From the human T2T-CHM13v2.0 reference genome, Homo sapiens: a stretch of 64,000 nucleotides of DNA. Position 1 is the first letter of the stretch, and every line of letters begins with the position of its first letter. The stretch lies in NCBI RefSeq assembly GCF_009914755.1, contig NC_060936.1; one strand, 5' to 3'. Below, one piece after another: positions 1-63,685 of this stretch. Position numbers and translations under genes: made by a program. The notes beneath the pieces are model-generated. The model was given only the letters and a program-made list of their open reading frames with translations. It was not told the origin of the DNA and ran no database searches.

Positions 1-872
1 AGATCCAGCAGAAATATGGAGGAAGGATGACACGAAGCCCAGGAAGAGTAATACATTTTTAAGAAAGGACGACAGGATGAGAGGTGCACAGAAAAAAGCT
101 TCCGAGTGGATGCCATCTCCTGATTACAATATGAATATTCTGGGGTTGTTAATTTTATAAAGTTATAACCACATCTTTATTACTAATCACATTGAACCTC
201 ACTAAGTATAAAGACAATGAATAGTAAATATGTATGCATTATAAATAACTGGAAAGCTCAATTAAGACAGGCCTTGAGCTTTATCTCAAGTGTCAATAAA
301 ATCAGACTTCCTTGGATCTGAAAGGGACAGTCATTCCAAAACTGAAACTCAGTGGGTGACAGGATGCCCACACCTCTTGGAGGAGGACAGAAAGGTTTGT
401 GGGCTGGTGTCAGATACAAGCTTGGCACCATCTTTGATTAGGAGCTAATGTTAGCAGAAAGATCAAGTGTCAGTCATGACCAGAGTTGTTTTCTACTATC
501 TTGAGAAGGTCACCGGATTGCTGCCCCTTCGTTTTTGAAACCTGATCTGGGGACCACAAACAGCCACAATGAATTGGATTACTGCCATGTGCTCTAAATT
601 GGGCTGACAAGGCTGACTCAGTGCCAGGAGTTGACACAGGATGCAGCTTGAAATATTCACTTGGGGAGAGGGTTGAGATTTCTTTTTAATTGTCAATGAT
701 GTTATTTGAAGAGATAGGATTGAATATGAACACTGAGGAGTGAAATAAATATTTGTCATGCACTTGGATAGAGAAGATCCACAAAGGTCAGAAAATTTTC
801 TGTGTTAAATTTTATGTTCTGGGGATTACTTGGCTATACTGGGAGGCTGCTGTTCCTTTTAAAAAGAGGTGA

Positions 873-1224
<352 letters not shown>

Positions 1225-3112
1225 TCAAATGTCCATAAAAAACAAAGGAAACTCCCTCTTATGTGCAAGGATATGTACAAACATAAACACAGTTTCTTTT
1301 ATTTGTATGTGAATTTGCAAGCAGCACCTCACTAGAGCTGAGCTTTTGTTATATAAATAAAGCCATCTGGTATATCCAAAGAATTTCAGTCTCTAGAGAA
1401 TAGGATCATAAACAATCGATCCTCCACAGACCTTTCAGTATTTTTGTTTGAGTAAAGTTTCCCACAGCTCTGCTTTAATTATTTTATCTGTTTTTAATCT
1501 TCTAAGGATTTTATAATTTATAATTAGCCATGTCTCTCCCTTCAGGTGTCATCCTCCCGTTCTCTCTGTCCTCCCTTTGGTTTAGATCTTCATTACTTCT
1601 CAGATGTCTCTTGTATTATTTTCCTGTCCATGTTTCCCTCTAATTTAATGTCTTTGTGTGAGTGCATAGGGAGAAAGTCTACTCCACCATTTTTTGGCAA
1701 TGTGAAGAACAGTGCATCCTTTAAGGCTTTTTGGTTAATGTATCATAAATAGATACTCAGATTAATAGAGTTTGGAAGAAGGAAGTATAGGATTCCATTT
1801 TTCTGATGGGAAAATGAAACATGGAGAGCTAAGTTCAAGGTCCCATGTCCCACAACTATTAACTGCTAAACATAATCCAGATTTTGTGAATCCCAGTTGA
1901 ATAATCTTTTACTCAACATTGTCTTTAACTTAATGTTTATTTTCTTTTAGGCATGGATATCAAGCATGCCTCTGAGTAAAACAAAGAGAATCCAGTCTTT
2001 GACCAATTGACCAAACAAGACCCAAGCAGCTGGGAAGTTTGTCAAGTCTCATAAGAATGAGGTTGGATTTTTTTTTCTTTAACTTCTCCTGCCCCCTTTA
2101 GCAAAAATTGTTTAGTACTAATTCATTTCTTGGAAGAAGTGAATTTCTAGGAAGCTTCTGAAATGACAATATAGTTATCTGAAAGACCAAAAGAGATAGA
2201 TTGCAAAACTCATATTACTGAATGTTGGGGCAGTTTAACACTAATGCCTGAGCCCCATACCTAGAAAGTAGAATTTCATTGGCCTAGATGGGGCTCTCCA
2301 AGATAAATCGAAATATGCAGGCTAAGTTTGAGAATGACTATTTGATGCACCTGGAGCATATCATTCACAAGGACAGCAGGTCTACAGATTCTCATCTTTC
2401 TCCTAGGGTGGTCTTCTTTGCGCAGGAGTAATTTGAAGTGAAACCAAGAAATCAGTTAGCTATACGGGAGGAAGCTCTGGAGGGACAGAAAACAGCTGGA
2501 TGTAATAAGAAGACTCACTCCAAACTGGTTTCTACTTTGTCAGACTTGACTAGACCTCCATGGTAGCTTGGGTGACTGGAAGTGGGAGACATAGGTTGAC
2601 AGGATCTCCTGACCCTGACCACAGCATCTCCGGCCCCATTTTTGTAGCCGGCTGAAATATTACAGATATTGCATTTTAATTAGGATACATAGCAATGCAG
2701 TAGTTTTTATGATTTATTTTGGCACATGATGGCATTAATAGCAAATTGTATTTGGATGTGACTTTTAGGCTGCTTTATGCATGCTTATCACTGATACTTG
2801 CTGAGTCATTTGTTTGGGAACAGGATGTGCTGTGCATCTTAACTGATAGATGAAAGAGCTTCCCCAGTCCGGTAAAACGCAGATTTTAATTAGCACAATT
2901 TTAAAATATTTTAATGCTTAGAAGCCATAAAATAAATTCAAAGAAGCACAACAAAATAATTAAAGCTGAGTTCTACCTTTTCTTTTGGACACCAAGATAT
3001 CACTGGTATCAAATCACTGTTTGCCATTTGGGAAGAACCTATTCACAGCTTTATCTTTTGCCAAAACCGTGGGCAAAGTGAACACTGACATCTCAGTTTA
3101 AGAGTGAATCCA

Positions 3113-3461
<349 letters not shown>

Positions 3462-3724
3462 TTAAAAATAGTTCTTCCTTTACTTTGTAGTTCATGCTTT
3501 TCCCAGAGTGGTACAGAGGAATTTAAATAATGTTGCAGCTAACAGGGAAAGGCCAACCTTTCCACCTCAGGCAGGCGAATTCACTGATTAGGCTTTCTGT
3601 TATTGCAGAGGAGTGGGATGGGAACAGACAGGAGTAGTGTAACCCATAGGCCTTAGACCACCTTCTCTTTACCTTCTAGGATAGATCAAACCTGGCCATA
3701 TGACATCTTCAAATTTATTTTTCA

Positions 3725-4055
<331 letters not shown>

Positions 4056-5833
4056 TTATTGAATACTGTCCAGATAATGTTTTGGAACAAGGCAGAGACG
4101 AGCTAAGTGAATTTTTATAAACCATATACTGTATTTCTTAATATATTCACATTTACTCAAAATAACCAAATATGATTACATTTTATAAAGTTTTATTCTG
4201 TTATTTGTCCTTTAAAATAAGAATGCAATATTTAAACAGTTGGCCTCTTACTGGGACAGAATATTGAGAATTTATTGACAACAGGTGGTGTTAAACTAGT
4301 GTTATACCAATTACATTGTAACAGAAAGAATGATGGCTGGGGATCAGCAAGCGTAAGGCAGTCCTGGGCTCAGCTTTGCTGCTCACTAGCTCTCTGACTT
4401 TGGACAAATCATCTCGCTCTCTTGTGAATGGCAAGAGAGGAACTAGAGACTGCTGTACCAGCTTTACATACTGTGGTGCATTAGATGAGATTTATATTTT
4501 ATTGAAATATCACTTAGAATTCTAAGCGATATTTCATTCAATTTTGCTTTCAAGAAATCCATATTCACTTATAAGTTATTACATTAGCTATCCCTTAGAA
4601 GAATCGTATTTTCATCTCAAGAATATGTAGAACATTGTGAAAGAGGTATCAAGACTGATCCTAACCACTGTTGTTGTTTTCCTCCTCTTCTTTCCCTGAC
4701 TTGTGTAACTTCCATGTTTGGATACATTGTTTTGTCACTCTTGAATACCTACAGGACATATGGCAAACTTTTTGATGAGATCAGTAGGACAAGTCAGACC
4801 TCAGAGCAAAACTTTCTGCTCAGCAGTTGTTTCTGTTCTCATACACTTTGCTGTGTGGTTCATTTTCTAACTCTGACAAAACCAGTGCAGTTCTAGGAGG
4901 GGCCCCGCCTGCTGGTCCGGTCATGGTCAACTACCCTGCCCTGACTGAGATGGCCATAGCCTAAGATCAGGCAGGGACCCCTCCTCCCCATGGAATTCTC
5001 TTCCAGCTTCTTATTCCTAGCCCCCTTTCTTTGCTCTCACCGTGTGATCTGACTTTCTCACAGAAGTTTGTGGGAAAATAGAGGCTATGTTTGCCCTCCA
5101 TGTGGTTAAAAGTGAATTTCCATGCTGGAAACATTGCTTCACTAAAATAAGGTCCTAGATTTTACATAAAAAAAGGAATTTTCTCCAAGATGCTGTGAAG
5201 CATTACCCAACTGCCACTCTGGTCACTAAAAATAAAAATAGCATGCTGTCTTAACAGGCAAGTCTTTTTGGAGAAAAATGCTGTGTAATTCTAAGTGAAA
5301 AAGAACATGAGTATTTTTGTCCAATGTCTTCGTATATTTAGGGGAAATACCTGTCAAATTAAAAAAATTCTGATAATTGATGAAAATGATTAAGACCTAG
5401 TAAGTGGTTGTTAGAAATCATTTTTTAAATCATAAAAATCCCAGAAGTAAGTACCGTGAGTATATAGTATGTACCCAAATATTTCATGAAAAAATAAAGG
5501 TTACTACTCAGATAATCTTTGGCTGAAACTAAGAGATGAGGGAAATATCCTCTTCATTCTTACATAGTATGGGCTCATTGAAAATACTAAAAAAAAAACC
5601 GAATCAGTTGAATTTGAGAAAATTGTGGAATTTTTTAGCAAGATTTGGAACATTGAACATCTAGATTAGGCTCCCTAAGTCCCTTCAATTGGACAATATA
5701 AAATGTCCTCTAGATGGAGCAGCAGGCTTTTTCTTTAAGACAAAGAATTCTTATTTTTGTGAAAGGAACTTCAGAACTTCATTTTAAACAGAACATAATT
5801 TAAAGAACCTTATTCTTAAGAATAAGGTAAGCA

Positions 5834-6136
<303 letters not shown>

Positions 6137-54780: not shown

Positions 54781-55641
54781 CCCACTTCATCTGAAATTTC
54801 ATCATTGAGAAATTAACATTTTTGTCTTTTGAAATGTTGATAGTTTTTAGACTTTGACTTTTGAAACTTTGATGCTTTCTCCAGGGAAAACAAAAATAGC
54901 AGGATAGAGAAGCAACTTGTGCTGGCTGAAATCAGCTGACACCTTAAGAGATACCTTTGTGGTAGAGAGGCTGGGTTTAGGGACAAAGCAGGCATGTAAT
55001 AACAAAGGAAGGACATTATAATTAAGTGGACGTTGATAAAATGGAAGTGAGAAGCTGCCAGAGCCAGCCTTTCACTCCCCTCAATATTTCATTCAGGGCT
55101 AGACCTATTTACATTCTTTCTTCCATTCTGTAGGAAATGAGTGATTCTCTTCATTTCCTGTATTAGGGGACTGCATCACAAGGGTCCCATACTATGAGAA
55201 TGAAAATGTGAATTGGTTGAACACAGATTAATTTCCTGCTTGGGTTATGATAGTGTATTGAATTCAATTCAACACACATCTTTTGAGTATCTATTCTGAG
55301 CTGAGTATTTTGTCACTCCTTGGAGAAAGAGAAAAAATTTAGACATGATCTCTGTCCTAGGAACTCATATTCTAATAGGGCAGAGAAACAGGTCTCTAAC
55401 AATGACACAACGCCCTAAATTCAAAGTGCTTTAAATGTAGAGGACAGAACTATTAACTTTATCAGAGAGTGCCTACACAGGCTCCACGGAAGAGATAACA
55501 TTTGACTTGGAACTTGTGTGATACTCCACCAATCCTTGAATTATGCCGTCCTGTTTCTGCTTCTAAGAATGCCAAACCCAGCAGCAAGGAAATGATTTTA
55601 ATTTTGCGATGCCAAAGCCAATTGATGTGAAAACCAAGATT

Positions 55642-56771
55642 TTTTTTTTTGCTCTTTAATTGTTTATTAAAAATGAAAGAGTGGAAATTATTGAGCAAAT
55701 CCAAATAGAACAAATCTAAAAAATCCATACCAAGACACATTGTAGTCAAATTTCTAGAACCTAAACAAAGAAAAATTCTTGAAAGCAGTGTGAGAGAATG
55801 ACACCTTAACCTACAGAGGAAAAGTCATTTAAATGAAAGATAATATCTCATCAGAAACCATGGAGACCAGAAGGAAGTGGCTTAAATTTTCTTTAAAGTA
55901 CTGGGAAAAGAAACCCTACCAATAAGCATTCAGTATCCAGTGAAAATATTTTATGGGGATGAAAGGAAAATCAATCATTCTCAGATGAATTTCAGAAATC
56001 ATCATTCTCAGATGAAGTAAAAACTAAGCAAAATTTTTACCAATACTCCTACCCTAAAAGTATGGGTAACGGACATTCTCTCAATATAAAGGATATGATA
56101 AAAATAAGAAATCTTGAAACATTAAAAAAAAGGTGAATGGGGAGAGTAAAAATATGGTGAATACAATAGAATTTCCTCCTCCTCTTGAGTTTTCCAAATT
56201 ACGTGTGATATTGGAGCAAAAATTCTGACACTCTGATATTGTTCTCAATGTATGTTGAGAAAATAATTGATATAATCATAAACTGGAAAGGATAAAAAAT
56301 ATGCTAAATAAAGGAAAGTTTCTACACCTAATTTGAAATGACAAAATGTCGAAGCCCTTAGACTATAGAATTATATATATAACAAATATATAATAAACAC
56401 ATTTTATATATAAAATATATATTTCCATATATAATGCAATTCTATATATAATATAATCATATATACATATATATATATATATACGATTCCATTATTGATT
56501 TCTGCATTGCAGAAATTTGATCCTCCTTCTCTGAGATGGAGCCGGTTTACATTTCCTTTAGTCTAAAGGCTTCAACATTCCACCAGTACAAACTAGGCGC
56601 AGAAATCCTCCCTTCTTCATCATGGCACCCAGGAAGAGAATTCCAACTCAGAATATCTTGGCTAAAACCACAACATTGAGCATGGAATTCATTCCTGTGC
56701 AGTTTCTCCATGCTAGTCTGTGCCACTAATGATGGTATCTAAGAAGCTATGGAAGAAGGACGAAAGTCCTA
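55642..56771 (-). mobile_element. 3'-transduced segment carried by the L1 (second poly(A) and AATAAA)
   Basis: T11 at 55640-55650, TTTATT at 55663-55668, and TSD TGAAAACCAAGATT at 55628-55641 and 62806-62819. Confidence 0.88.
55690..56400 (+). mobile_element. Old L1M-type ORF1 C-terminal fragment inside the transduced segment
   Basis: Degenerate ORF1-like coding: PRHIVVKFL..., ..KILKAV.., SSETMETRRKW. Confidence 0.65.
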
Positions 56772-57001
56772 TTTTTTCTTTTTTTCTTTTTTTTTTTTTA
56801 TACTTTAAGTTTTAGGGTACATGTGCACATTGTGCAGGTTAGTTACATATGTATACATGTGCTGTGCTGGTGCGCTGCACCCACTAACTCATCATCTAGC
56901 ATTAGGTATATCTCCCAATGCTATCCCTCCCCCCTCCCCCCACCCCACCACAGTCCCCAGAGTGTGATATTCCCCTTCCTGTGTCCATGTGATCTCATTG
57001 T

Positions 57002-60834
<3,833 letters not shown>

Positions 60835-60882
60835 TCATTTTGCTCGTTAGTTGATGCAGTTTCTTCCTAGTCTCGATGGTCT

Positions 60883-61899
60883 TTACATTTTGGCATGATT
60901 TTGCAGCGGCTGGTACCAGTTGTTCCTTTCCATGTTTAGTGCTTCCTTCAGGAGCTCTTTTAGGGCAGGCCTGGTGGTGACAAAATCTCTCAGCATTTGC
61001 TTGTCTATAAAGTATTTTATTTCTCCTTCACTTATGAAGCTTAGTTTGGCTGGATATGAAATTCTGGGTTGCAAATTCTTTTCTTTAAGAATGTTGAATA
61101 TTGGCCCCCACTCTCTTCTGGCTTGTAGGGTTTCTGCCGAGAGATCCGCTGTTAGTCTGATGGGCTTCCCTTTGAGGGTAACCCGACCTTTCTCTCTGGC
61201 TGCCCTTAACATTTTTTCCTTCATTTCAACTTTGGTGAATCTGACAATTATGTGTCTTGGAGTTGCTCTTCTCGAGGAGTATCTTTGTGGTGTTCTCTGT
61301 ATTTCCTGAATCTGAACGTTGGCCTGCCTTGCTAGATTGGGGAAGTTCTCCTGGATAATATCCTGCAGAGTGTTTTCCAACTTGGTTCCATTCTCCCCAT
61401 CACTTTCAGGTACACGAATCAGATGTAGATTTGGTCTTTTCACATAGTCCCATATTTCTTGGAGGCTTTGCTCATTTCTTTTTATTCTTTTTTCTCTAAA
61501 CTTCCCTTCTCACTTCATTTCATTCATTTCATCTTCCATTGCTGATACCCTTTCTTCCATTTGATCGCATCGGCTCCTGAGGCTTCTGCATTCTTCACGT
61601 AGTTCTCGAGCCTTGGTTTTCAGCTCCATCAGCTCCTTTAAGCACTTCTCTGTATTGGTTATTCTAGTTATACATTCTTCTAAATTTTTTTCAAAGTTTT
61701 CAACTTGTTTGCCTTTGGTTTGAATGTCCTCCCGTAGCTCAGAGTAATTTGATCGTCTGAAGCCTTCTTCTCTCAGCTCGTCAAAATCATTCTCCATCCA
61801 GCTTTGTTCCGTTGCTGGTGAGGAACTGCGTTCCTTTGGAGGAGGAGAGGCGCTCTGCGTTTTAGAGTTTCCAGTTTTTCTGTTGTGTTTTTTCCCCAT
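60883..61899 (-). pseudogene. L1 ORF1p (338-codon frame) broken by a single nonsense codon, R130*
   Basis: ORFs 61510..61899 and 60883..61443 share one frame spanning 1017 nt; TGA at 61510-61512 where consensus has Arg (MNEMK-R-EGK). Confidence 0.93.
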
Positions 61900-62798
61900 C
61901 TTTGTGGTTTTATCTACTTTTGGTCTTTGATGATGGTGATATACAGATGGGTTTTCGGTGTGGATGTCCTTTCTGTTTGTTAGTTTCCCTTCTAACAGAC
62001 AGGACCCTCAGCTGAAGGTCTGTTGGAATACCCTGCCGTGTGAGGTGTCAGTGTGCCCCTGCTGGGGGGTGCCTCCCAGTTAGGCTGCTCGGGGGTCAGG
62101 GGTCAGGGACCCACTTGAGGAGGCAGTCTGCCTGTTCTCAGATCTCCAGCTGCGTGCTGGGAGAACCACTGCTCTCTTCAAAGCTGTCAGACAGGGACAT
62201 TTAAGTCTGCAGAGGTTACTGCTGTCTTTTTGTTTGTCTGTGCCCTGCCACCATAGGTGGAGCCTACAGAGGCAGGTAGGCCTCCTTGAGCTGTGGTGGG
62301 CTCCACCCAGTTCGAGCTTCCCGGCTGCTTTGTTTACCTAAGGAAGCCTGGGCGATGGCGGGCGCCCCTCCCCCAGCCTCGCTGCCGCCTTGCAGTTTGA
62401 TCTCAGACTGCTGTACTAGCAATCAGTGAGACTCCGTGGGCGTAGGACCCTCCGAGGCAGGTGTGGGATATAGTCTCGTGGTGCGCCGTTTTTTAAGCCG
62501 GTCTGAAATGCGCAATATTCGGGTGGGAGTGACCCGATTTTCCAGGTGCGTCCGTCAGCCCTTTCTTTGACTCGGAAAGGGAACTCCCTGACCCCTTGCG
62601 CTTCCCAGGTGAGGCAATGCCTCGCCCTGCTTCGGCTCGCGCACGGTGCGCGCACCCACTGACCTGCGCCCACTGTCTGGCACTCCCTAGTGAGATGAAC
62701 CCGGTACCTCAGATGGAAATGCAGAAATCACCTGTCTTCTGTGTCGCTCACGCTGGGAGCTGTAGACCGGAGCTGTTCCTATTCGGCCATCTTGGCTC
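61900..62798. promoter_or_regulatory. L1 5'UTR bidirectional promoter (sense promoter on -, antisense promoter on +), CpG-rich, YY1 site intact
   Basis: YY1 motif CAAGATGGCCG on - strand at 62784-62794; highest CpG density in the window outside Alus; promoter function is established for primate L1 5'UTRs. Confidence 0.75.
62355..62570 (+). pseudogene. L1 ORF0 frame (antisense to L1), truncated to 24 aa
   Basis: ATG at 62355 reads MAGAPPPASLPPCSLISDCCTSNQ then TGA at 62427-62429; the normal 71-codon stop is still in frame at 62568-62570. Confidence 0.85.
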
Positions 62799-63685
62799 GA
62801 GAGTCTGAAAACCAAGATTCTTTAATACCCATTTTTCCTATTAAAGTTATCATTCAAAATGGAAAAAATAAACTTATTTTCCCCTTAGTAAATTATAATT
62901 TTTTTCTTGATAATAATTTCTTTCTTGCCCAATTATTGTGAGTTTTCATGAGGTGTCACATATTAATGTGCCTGTCATGGTTCCTAGAATAACATAAACA
63001 ACAAATGGTGAGTATTATAGTAATAGTTGCATTGGGCTGGAAAACCAATATTCAGTTGCTTTGCTAACTTTTAAAACCACCGTTAATGTAGGAAAGAATG
63101 CACATATTAGAAGGTAAATCATAAATGTAATGTCTTTCCAGGAATTTAGCAATTTTAGCCTAAACTGTTTTGAAAAGACTTTTCTTATTTGTAGGTTTAG
63201 AATATTTTCTGAGCCTCTAGAGTTTATATGCTCAGTCCTTTTTTCGTTCTAAAGTTCAGTTGATTGGACTAGATAAGCTGCAGGACTCCCATTACAGTAG
63301 CACAGGATAAGGGCAATTTGAGATGGTGGCTTTTACAATAGTGACACTGAAAATGTTAAGCCTCACAAAATGCAGCATTCTTAAGACCATTATCTCCTAA
63401 GATATTTAACTATTCAATTTTGAGTTTGGATTAGGTTGAAAAACAAGCCCTCTACCTTGGTGTAAATCTGCTTACTTGATAAGTGCCTTGTTAATCTGCT
63501 TTGGGAATTTTCAGAGCTCTAATAGGAAATTATTTTGGGGGGAAGCTCCTGAAGTGATTATAAGAAAATAATTAAAGATTATTTAGTCTTGGCAATGTTA
63601 TAAAAATAATTAGCTTTAGTAATTTAAACTTGAAAGAATTCAAAATCCTCTTTTAAATCTTAAATGCCATTTATTCAATCTTTCA

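What the first reader, a model, noticed from the sequence alone, without database searches (positions are those of the whole stretch)
55628..62823. Full-length L1 with a 1.1-kb 3' transduction: the real insertion is about 7.2 kb
Seen: the genomic flank beyond the L1's 5' end is not repeated beside its own poly(A) (56772-56799). Instead TGAAAACCAAGATT at 62806-62819 recurs exactly at 55628-55641, abutting a second tail (T11, 55640-55650). An AATAAA on the L1 strand (TTTATT, 55663-55668) sits 12 nt from that tail. The 5' flank has an endonuclease-type site CTTT/AA (62820-62825). Established: this is the signature of L1 3' transduction. Inference: 55651-56771 (old L1M fragment, TA-rich tract, ~280 nt of apparently unique DNA) was copied from another locus into the OTOGL intron. 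Standard repeat annotation would not show this.
Basis: partly seen in the sequence, partly recalled or inferred. Interest (0 to 1): 0.8.

Follow-up and report, generated by a model that had tools for sequence, protein, structure and literature searches.

The report
L1 transduction carrying fossil RNA editing
A 7.2-kb jumping-gene insertion in an OTOGL intron is a full-length L1 that dragged along 1.1 kb of chromosome 9 DNA, and that passenger piece carries a cluster of A-to-G changes in a hairpin that looks like RNA editing frozen into the genome.

Summary
TGAAAACCAAGATT occurs only at 55628-55641 and 62806-62819, bracketing a 7,164-nt insert (55642-62805). On the minus strand this reads: 7 nt filler, L1 body (62798-56800), L1 A-tract, 1,132 nt of non-L1 DNA (56782-55651), an AATAAA, and a second short A-tail.

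The extra DNA has exactly one other copy in the assembly, G000:C9:100998724-100999876. Homology starts at the poly(A) cleavage site and ends in an A-rich endonuclease-type site. Chr9 has no L1 there or within 10 kb, so it is an empty source site. This is an ordinary partnered 3' transduction.

A new point came out of the comparison. Of 29 mismatches to chr9, 18 are chr9 A to chr12 G on the L1 sense strand; the other three transition classes number 2, 2 and 1. Of 13 sites that could be polarised, 11 changed on the chr12 lineage. Thirteen of the 18 lie in one long hairpin (z = -16.3). The adjacent L1 body shows no such excess.

The best reading is ADAR hyper-editing of the read-through RNA, copied into DNA. 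My 10 literature searches found no precedent.

The parts
55628..55641 (.). Left (3'-side) copy of the target-site duplication, TGAAAACCAAGATT
   Evidence: Exact 14-mer present only here and at 62806-62819; 0 of 100 shuffles reach 2 matches.
55642..55650 (-). Terminal poly(A) tail of the retrocopy (T-run on the + strand). It has 8-9 untemplated A; the last base is ambiguous with the chr9 template.
   Evidence: chr9 reads ...GAAAA|TGCTC at this point, with no T-run.
55663..55668 (-). AATAAA polyadenylation hexamer used by the read-through transcript. Cleavage falls 12-13 nt downstream, at a CA.
   Evidence: The hexamer and cleavage site are present at chr9, followed there by a U/GU-rich stretch that is absent from the window copy.
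55651..56782 (-). The 1,132-nt 3' transduced segment, copied from G000:C9:100998724-100999876. It contains an old L1M-like fragment (~55690-56300), a TA-rich core and two-copy DNA.
   Evidence: one paralogue only, 97.4% over 1121 aligned nt plus a 20-nt TA-repeat length difference. About 40 scored hits at 66-79% to the 55690-56300 part.
56301..56623 (-). Long hairpin (arms 56301-56368 and 56556-56623 around a TA-rich core) that holds 13 of the 18 A-to-G-type differences
   Evidence: inverted repeat I1; chr9 RNA version -131.4 kcal/mol, z = -16.3; window version -121.6 kcal/mol, z = -11.3; 13 of 128 A inside versus 5 of 235 outside, p = 0.0012; outer arms 10 of 48 versus 8 of 315, p = 1.3e-5.
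56783..56799 (-). Internal A-tract inherited from the donor L1 (A13 G A3 on the L1 strand)
   Evidence: it lies between the L1 3' end and the first chr9-templated base.
56800..62798 (-). Full-length L1PA2-like body (5,999 nt) with broken coding capacity
   Evidence: 97.4-98.1% identity over 1-5999 to 7 of 8 full-length copies (the eighth aligns in two pieces); longest minus-strand ORFs are 1156, 129 and 113 aa; the 5' UTR matches other copies up to 62798.
62799..62805 (-). Seven nt of filler (GACTCTC on the L1 strand) in place of the usual first 7 nt of L1
   Evidence: 8 of 8 relatives read G-rich ...GGAG before GAGCCAAGATGG; the window does not.
62806..62819 (.). Right (5'-side) copy of the target-site duplication

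Best explanation
An active full-length L1 of the L1PA2 generation once sat on the minus strand of chromosome 9, immediately next to G000:C9:100999876. That allele is not in this assembly.

Its transcript ran past the element's own weak 3' end, which in this copy lacks AATAAA or ATTAAA. It was cleaved and polyadenylated 1.13 kb further on, at a genomic AATAAA-N12-CA site.

Before reverse transcription, a roughly 330-nt hairpin in the passenger RNA was hyper-edited by an ADAR enzyme. Inosine is read as G, so the edits became A-to-G on the L1 strand.

The L1 machinery then inserted the whole 7.16-kb RNA copy, antisense, into an OTOGL intron on chromosome 12, making a 14-nt target-site duplication.

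Shown: the architecture, the single chr9 paralogue, the exact boundaries, and the strand-, lineage- and hairpin-specific A-to-G excess.

Inferred: the former presence of the chr9 L1, ADAR as the agent, and an age of roughly the human-chimpanzee split.

My odds are about 0.9 for the transduction and about 0.75 for ADAR editing as the source of the A-to-G cluster.
For: Architecture:
- The 14-nt repeat brackets L1 plus the extra DNA and appears nowhere else in the window.
- No repeat flanks the L1 alone.
- As a method control, 5 of 7 related L1s have their duplication directly after their own A-tail.

Source:
- There is one paralogue only, on C9.
- Homology starts at the poly(A) site, where chr9 lacks the A-run. 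It ends in AAAAGAAAAAATAGG, which corresponds to a TTTT/G nick site on the other strand.
- Both chr12 flanks are single-copy.

Read-through:
- The window L1 ends GTATAAAAAA, without the hexamer that 6 of 7 relatives have.
- The one relative that also lacks it (L026) has its own duplication 116 nt beyond its end.

Editing:
- 18 of 29 mismatches are window C / chr9 T on the + strand. The other transition classes number 2, 2 and 1 (chi-square p = 1.3e-7; 18 versus 2 gives p = 4e-4).
- Polarity: 9 of 10 such sites in the inverted-repeat arms have the chr9 state equal to the other arm. With 8 L1M relatives as outgroup, 2 of 3 are chr12-derived. In all, 11 of 13 polarised sites changed on chr12.
- Three of the 11 create a CpG in chr12, so they are not CpG decay in chr9.
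- 15 of 18 sites pair with U in the minimum-energy fold of the chr9 RNA.
- 13 of 18 lie in a hairpin with z = -16.3.
- All 9 stem changes turn A-U into G-U and none gives A-C (p = 0.004).
- Control: the adjoining 5,999-nt L1 body has 61 private differences, of which only 5 are A-to-G (G-to-A 12, C-to-T 11, T-to-C 4). Transduced segment versus body gives p = 3e-12.
- Reverse transcription reads inosine as G (passage in PMC5224506).
Against: - No L1 is present at the chr9 site or within 10 kb of it in this assembly, so the donor element is inferred, not seen.
- No outgroup primate could be examined. The empty chr12 site and the ancestral state at 5 of the 18 sites (56400, 56426, 56466, 56644, 56723) are untested.
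- Two of the 13 polarised C/T sites (56080, 56325) changed on chr9, so they are ordinary mutations.
- Five of the 18 sites lie outside the hairpin, and 3 are unpaired in the fold.
- The ADAR 5'-neighbour preference is only a trend (U 8, A 5, C 3, G 2, against a background of U 124, A 104, G 69, C 65).
- The fold and the arm alignment both use the chr9 sequence, which leans them slightly towards pairing its bases.
- Cell-culture work found no editing of L1 RNA (PMC5224506 and PMC8677026, passages).
- The nick implied by the exact duplication (GATT/CT) is a poor match to the usual TTTT/AA.
Confidence: 0.72

Rival explanations
1. The transduction is real, but the A-to-G excess is not RNA editing. 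It comes from chance or from an unknown strand-biased DNA mutation process at chr12 or chr9 after insertion.
For: It is a single locus with 18 sites. Five sites are unpolarised. Two of 13 polarised sites changed on chr9. The neighbour preference is not significant.
Against: - The four transition classes number 18, 2, 2 and 1 (p = 1.3e-7).
- The L1 body in the same locus, of the same age, shows 5 A-to-G among 61 private changes.
- Biased gene conversion would raise both A-to-G and T-to-C.
- The excess is T-to-C on the OTOGL coding (+) strand. As I recall, this is the opposite of the usual transcription-linked bias.
- Cytosine deaminases cannot make A-to-G.
- Arm-to-arm gene conversion in chr9 fails on two counts. 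Unconverted arm differences are interleaved with the changed sites, and all 9 stem changes are A-U to G-U.
Confidence: 0.17
2. This is a template-switch chimera rather than a read-through. A separate 1.15-kb polyadenylated chr9 transcript was reverse-transcribed at the chr12 nick. The enzyme then jumped from its 5' end onto the poly(A) end of an L1 RNA, so no L1 ever sat on chr9.
For: Chr9 has no L1 at or near the junction. The A-rich junction could favour a switch onto poly(A).
Against: - It needs an unknown promoter firing exactly at an A-rich, endonuclease-type site (TTTT/G).
- It then needs a complete 6-kb copy after the switch.
- As I recall, known chimeras usually join small RNAs to 5'-truncated partners and are far rarer than transductions. 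About 25% of L1 insertions carry transductions (abstract of PMC13009371).
- Source L1s absent from a reference are documented (passages on 'proxy elements').
Confidence: 0.06
3. There were two separate events. Either a DNA-level duplication or an earlier retrocopy of the chr9 segment was already at chr12, and the L1 landed beside it later.
For: None beyond the adjacency.
Against: - The L1 alone has no flanking duplication.
- The only duplication spans L1 plus passenger.
- The passenger ends in an untemplated A-tail at a poly(A) site and starts directly at the L1 A-tract.
Confidence: 0.02

Closest known systems
L1 3' transduction ('partnered' type: L1 plus downstream genomic DNA)
   Same: L1 with an internal A-tract, downstream non-L1 DNA ending at a genomic AATAAA with a second A-tail, and one duplication around the whole unit. 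The passenger maps to one other locus. The category is as described in PMC13009371 (passages). The founding papers are recalled only and were not read here.
   Different: The donor L1 is not present in the assembly (empty site). The element is full-length with a rather long (1.13 kb) passenger.
'Proxy elements': reference L1s that carry a transduction from a source absent from the reference (PMC13009371, passages)
   Same: A reference copy preserves the passenger sequence of a source L1 that the reference lacks.
   Different: Those described are truncated and tied to currently active, polymorphic sources in tumours. This one is full-length, coding-dead and about 1% diverged, so its source is probably long lost.
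ADAR hyper-editing clusters in long hairpin RNAs
   Same: Clustered A-to-G changes on the transcribed strand, inside a long, tight intramolecular duplex, with few G 5' of the sites. The hallmarks are as stated in PMC2873906 (passages). PMC3197674 and PMC4365171 were seen as listings and abstracts only.
   Different: Here the changes are in genomic DNA of a retrocopy, compared with its donor locus, not in cDNA compared with its own gene. The substrate is a locus-specific inverted repeat with a TA core, not an Alu pair.
APOBEC3 'DNA editing' footprints in retroelements (G-to-A clusters)
   Same: A deaminase mark made during the retrotransposition cycle and then fixed in the genome (PMC2873906 passages).
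   Different: The base change is the opposite one. APOBEC acting on first-strand cDNA would give window T / chr9 C on the + strand, which is seen at 2 sites against 18 of the reverse kind.
Template-switch chimeric retrocopies (U6-L1 type; recalled, no paper read)
   Same: Two RNAs' worth of sequence within one duplication.
   Different: The order and completeness (a full-length L1 with its tail 5' of the passenger) and the endonuclease-type junction fit read-through better.

Membership tests
L1 3' transduction | Target-site duplication encloses L1 plus extra 3' DNA, with none around the L1 alone | tested here: met
   Control: 5 of 7 relatives have the duplication right after their own tail.
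L1 3' transduction | Extra DNA ends in an untemplated A-tail just downstream of a polyadenylation hexamer | tested here: met
   AATAAA at 55668-55663, then 12 nt, then CA, then the tail. Chr9 has the hexamer and site but no A-run.
L1 3' transduction | Extra DNA maps to a unique locus elsewhere, starting directly after an L1 insertion point | tested here: met
   There is one paralogue, C9:100998724-100999876. The junction falls at TTTT/G on the priming strand.
L1 3' transduction | A source L1 is present at that locus | tested here: not met
   No L1PA-like DNA at the junction or within 10 kb either side in this assembly. An empty allele of a lost polymorphic source remains compatible; other haplotypes and species could not be examined.
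L1 3' transduction | Insertion absent, with a single copy of the target site, in species that predate it | not testable with these tools
   No primate genomes are held, and the chr12 flanks have no paralogue to stand in.
ADAR A-to-I hyper-editing | Excess of A-to-G over all other changes on the transcribed strand, derived in the RNA-borne copy | tested here: met
   18 of 29 mismatches, against 2, 2 and 1 for the other transition classes. 11 of 13 polarised sites are derived on chr12. The L1 body control has 5 of 61.
ADAR A-to-I hyper-editing | Sites lie in long double-stranded RNA | tested here: met
   13 of 18 lie in a hairpin with z = -16.3. 10 of 48 A in the outer arms changed, against 8 of 315 elsewhere (p = 1.3e-5). 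15 of 18 are paired with U.
ADAR A-to-I hyper-editing | G depleted at the 5' neighbour | tested here: inconclusive
   G precedes 2 of 18 sites, against 69 of 362 in the background. The direction is right but the sample is too small.
ADAR A-to-I hyper-editing | Inosine or editing seen in RNA from the donor locus | not testable with these tools
   No RNA data are held.
L1PA2 subfamily | Subfamily-diagnostic positions | not tested
   Only indirect evidence: 97.4-98.1% identity to 8 full-length copies and about 6.0 kb length. No reference subfamily sequences were on hand.

The most novel reading that the evidence does not exclude
The chr12 copy is a molecular fossil, a few million years old, of one ADAR-hyper-edited L1 read-through RNA. 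If so, it is natural evidence that an edited L1 transcript can complete germline retrotransposition. It would also mean that every transduction or retrocopy with a surviving donor locus can be read as a record of ancient RNA editing on retrotransposition-competent RNAs.
Probability: 0.7. Interest if true: 0.65.

Novelty: new variant of a known kind. Interest (0 to 1): 0.55.

Why it matters
The transduction itself is routine; roughly a quarter of L1 insertions carry one (abstract of PMC13009371). It matters mainly for correct annotation: 1.1 kb of this OTOGL intron is chr9-derived, and the insert is 7.16 kb rather than 6 kb.

The A-to-G cluster is the more useful part. Cell-culture studies detected no editing of L1 RNA and concluded that ADAR1/2 restrict L1 without editing (PMC5224506, PMC8677026; passages). 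A 2016 review called the role of ADAR editing in retroelement evolution 'not yet determined' (PMC4982230, passage).

A donor/offspring pair such as this gives a direct, countable readout. It suggests a simple genome-wide screen comparing transductions and retrocopies with their donors, counting A-to-G against T-to-C clusters. It is a single locus, so on its own it is an anecdote.

Tried and rejected
1. APOBEC-type editing of the cDNA. This predicts window T / chr9 C on the + strand; 2 such sites were seen against 18 of the reverse kind. Rejected.

2. CpG decay on chr9 as the source of the C/T sites. Only 3 of the 18 involve a CpG, and all 3 are polarised as gains on chr12. Rejected.

3. Double-stranded RNA between the old L1M fragment and the L1 body. 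blastn found only one 28-nt match. Rejected as a substrate.

4. An in-genome stand-in for the empty chr12 site. Both flanks are single-copy, so there was nothing to compare.

5. A source L1 near the chr9 junction. There were no hits within 10 kb either side.

6. Sibling copies carrying the same passenger. The own-genome searches found only chr12 and chr9 for the two-copy part. That search skips very common words and scores only the best candidates.

8. Ten literature searches. None returned a paper describing ADAR-type clusters in an L1 transduction or an L1 in OTOGL. The library lacks most subscription papers, and no supplements were opened, so published transduction lists may still contain this locus.
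Full report
**What is in the sequence**

The 14-mer TGAAAACCAAGATT sits at 55628-55641 and again at 62806-62819. It occurs nowhere else in the 64 kb, even with one mismatch allowed, and none of 100 shuffles gave two matches.

Between the two copies lie 7,164 nt (55642-62805). Read on the minus strand, they are:
- 7 nt of filler (62805-62799)
- an L1 body (62798-56800)
- an A-tract, A13 G A3 (56799-56783)
- 1,132 nt that are not young L1 (56782-55651)
- an AATAAA (55668-55663), then 12 nt ending in CA
- a short A-tail (55650/49-55642)

The 5' flank of the L1 is not repeated next to the L1's own A-tract.

As a control on the method, I read the ends of 7 related full-length L1s. L024 was left out because its alignment was split. 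Five have their duplication directly after their own A-tail. One (L025) has a matching 14-mer displaced by 12 nt at the 5' side. One (L026) has none within 60 nt.

**The L1**

The body aligns over positions 1-5999 at 97.4-98.1% to 7 of 8 other full-length copies taken from the same assembly; the eighth aligns in two pieces.

The longest minus-strand ORFs are 1156, 129 and 113 aa. As I recall, an intact element has about 1275 and 338 aa, so both genes are broken.

All 8 relatives begin with a G-rich ...GGAG before GAGCCAAGATGG. The window has GACTCTC there instead.

**The donor locus**

The 281-nt 'unique' part (56490-56770) has exactly one other hit in the assembly, at G000:C9:100999584-100999864 (95%). 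There is also a 44-nt fragment 2.4 kb away from that hit.

The whole passenger aligns to C9:100998724-100999876. Identity is 1092 of 1121 aligned positions (97.4%), plus a 20-nt length difference in a TA repeat.

The boundaries are exact:
- At the low end, homology begins at the base after the T-run. Chr9 reads GAAAA|TGCTC there and has no A-tail. On the L1 strand it goes on with a U/GU-rich stretch after the CA. Both features suit a real poly(A) site.
- At the high end, homology runs through TATTTTTTCTTTT to 56782. Chr9 then continues with unrelated DNA. On the priming strand this is a TTTT/G nick site, and the passenger begins with what would be the donor's duplication (AAAAGAAAAAATAGG on the L1 strand).

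Chr9 has no L1PA-like DNA at the junction or within 10 kb either side. The donor is therefore an empty site in this assembly.

Both chr12 flanks are single-copy, so no in-genome proxy of the empty chr12 site exists.

**Why read-through is the best account**

The structure meets four of the five testable hallmarks of a partnered 3' transduction. It fails only on 'source L1 present'.

Sources missing from a reference are documented for active elements (PMC13009371, passages on 'proxy elements'). They are also expected for an insertion this old. The ordinary (non-C/T) divergence between the two copies is 11 of 1121 positions. The L1 body has 61 private differences in 5,999 nt. By my recalled human-chimpanzee figure of about 1.2%, that puts the event within a few million years of that split.

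A template-switch chimera cannot be excluded, but it needs three things:
- an unseen promoter firing at an endonuclease-type site
- a jump onto the poly(A) end of an L1 RNA
- a complete 6-kb copy afterwards

Two-step models fail because the L1 alone has no duplication.

A hint about the cause of read-through comes from the L1 3' ends. The window L1 ends GTATAAAAAA, without the AATAAA or ATTAAA that 6 of 7 relatives carry there. The one relative that also lacks it (L026) has its own 12-nt duplication 116 nt beyond its end, after a second A-rich tail. So 2 of 2 hexamer-less copies read through, against 0 of 5 with a hexamer and a clear adjacent duplication. The sample is small, and the window's loss could post-date insertion.

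**The strand-specific excess**

Of the 29 mismatches between the passenger and chr9, 18 are window C / chr9 T on the + strand. On the L1 strand that is donor A, copy G. The other three transition classes number 2, 2 and 1, and there are 6 transversions. Four equal classes are rejected at p = 1.3e-7, and 18 against 2 gives p = 4e-4.

Polarity was tested in two ways:
- In the inverted repeat (arms 56301-56368 and 56556-56623), I aligned each arm to the reverse complement of the other. At 9 of the 10 C/T sites the chr9 base equals the other arm in both loci, so the change is on chr12. The exception is 56325.
- In the old L1M fragment, 8 relatives serve as an outgroup. Sites 55814 and 56202 are chr12-derived, and 56080 is chr9-derived.

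In all, 11 of 13 polarised sites changed on chr12. Five sites are unpolarised (56400, 56426, 56466, 56644, 56723). Three of the 11 create a CpG on chr12, so they are not CpG decay on chr9.

**Where the sites are**

The chr9 minus-strand RNA folds into a roughly 330-nt hairpin, at -131.4 kcal/mol against -62.0 for shuffles (z = -16.3). The window version still folds, at -121.6 kcal/mol (z = -11.3), because A-U pairs became G-U.

- 15 of the 18 sites pair with U in the minimum-energy fold of the 1,153-nt RNA. Among all adenosines, 240 of 363 are paired.
- 13 sites lie in the hairpin: 13 of 128 adenosines changed there, against 5 of 235 outside (p = 0.0012).
- 10 sites lie in the outer arms: 10 of 48 adenosines, against 8 of 315 elsewhere (p = 1.3e-5).
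- All 9 chr12-derived stem changes give G-U, and none gives A-C (p = 0.004).
- The 5' neighbours are U 8, A 5, C 3, G 2. That is the ADAR order, but it is not significant against the background.

**Controls and alternatives for the excess**

- The L1 body is next door and the same age. Of its 61 private differences, 5 are A-to-G, 12 G-to-A, 11 C-to-T, 4 T-to-C and 29 transversions. Passenger against body gives p = 3e-12 for all 18 sites and 6e-7 for the 11 polarised ones. A regional mutation bias is therefore unlikely.
- Cytosine deaminases cannot make A-to-G. The change expected from APOBEC acting on the cDNA is seen at 2 sites, not 18.
- Biased gene conversion is strand-symmetric.
- Arm-to-arm conversion on chr9 would have erased the arm differences that remain interleaved with the changed sites.

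The remaining explanation is adenosine deamination of the sense RNA before reverse transcription, which reads inosine as G (PMC5224506, passage).

**Comparison with what is known**

The transduction is an ordinary member of a well-known class.

For the editing mark I found no precedent in 10 full-text searches.
- Two cell-culture papers report no editing on L1 RNA (passages).
- A review states that the role of ADAR editing in retroelement evolution is undetermined (passage).
[quoted passage not shown] It is not held here, so I did not read it.
- PMC12941027, seen only as a listing and abstract, argues in general terms for deaminase-plus-reverse-transcriptase write-back.

The library lacks most subscription journals, and I opened no supplements.

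The nick implied by the exact duplication is GATT/CTTT (62819/62820), which is a poor endonuclease site. It would fit only if 55642 has mutated from C to T, giving an 18-nt duplication matching at 17 of 18 and a tail of 4-5 A. I cannot choose between these two readings.

**Verdict**

The transduction alone is routine. The hairpin-confined, strand- and lineage-specific A-to-G cluster is most likely ADAR hyper-editing preserved by retrotransposition. That raises the interest to moderate, pending outgroup sequences.

Noticed in passing
window 56800-56812 (minus strand); L026 (G000:C11:43500300-43507700): The window L1 ends GTATAAAAAA, without the AATAAA or ATTAAA that 6 of 7 relatives have. The one relative that also lacks it (L026) has its 12-nt duplication 116 nt beyond the L1 end after a second A-rich tail, so it carries a short transduction of its own.
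   Followed up: partly
window 61958-63142: The two RefSeq 'enhancer' features in the hub's table lie on the CpG-rich L1 5' UTR (to 62798) and the first 340 nt of unique flank. The L1 part matches thousands of other copies at about 97% (4,483 first-look candidates).
   Followed up: no
window 56459-56485 vs L005 (C9:100999533-100999579): The TA repeat at the hairpin tip is 20 nt longer on chr9 than in the window.
   Followed up: no
L003, G000:C9:101002217-101002260: A 44-nt stretch, 89% identical to window 56513-56556, lies 2.4 kb from the chr9 donor segment on the same strand. It is a third, partial copy of unknown origin.
   Followed up: no
L002 2690-2810 (about G000:C9:101000773-101000893): A long (TCCC)n/(TTCC)n tract lies about 0.9 kb beyond the chr9 junction.
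   Followed up: no
window 57349-61899 (minus strand): The L1 reading frames are broken: the longest ORF2-frame stretch is 1156 aa, and the ORF1 region gives only 129- and 113-aa pieces.
   Followed up: partly
L025 (G000:C19:40638900-40645300): This relative's 14-nt flank match (AAAAAGATAGGAAT) is separated from the L1 5' end by 12 extra nt. That could be filler or a short 5' extension.
   Followed up: no
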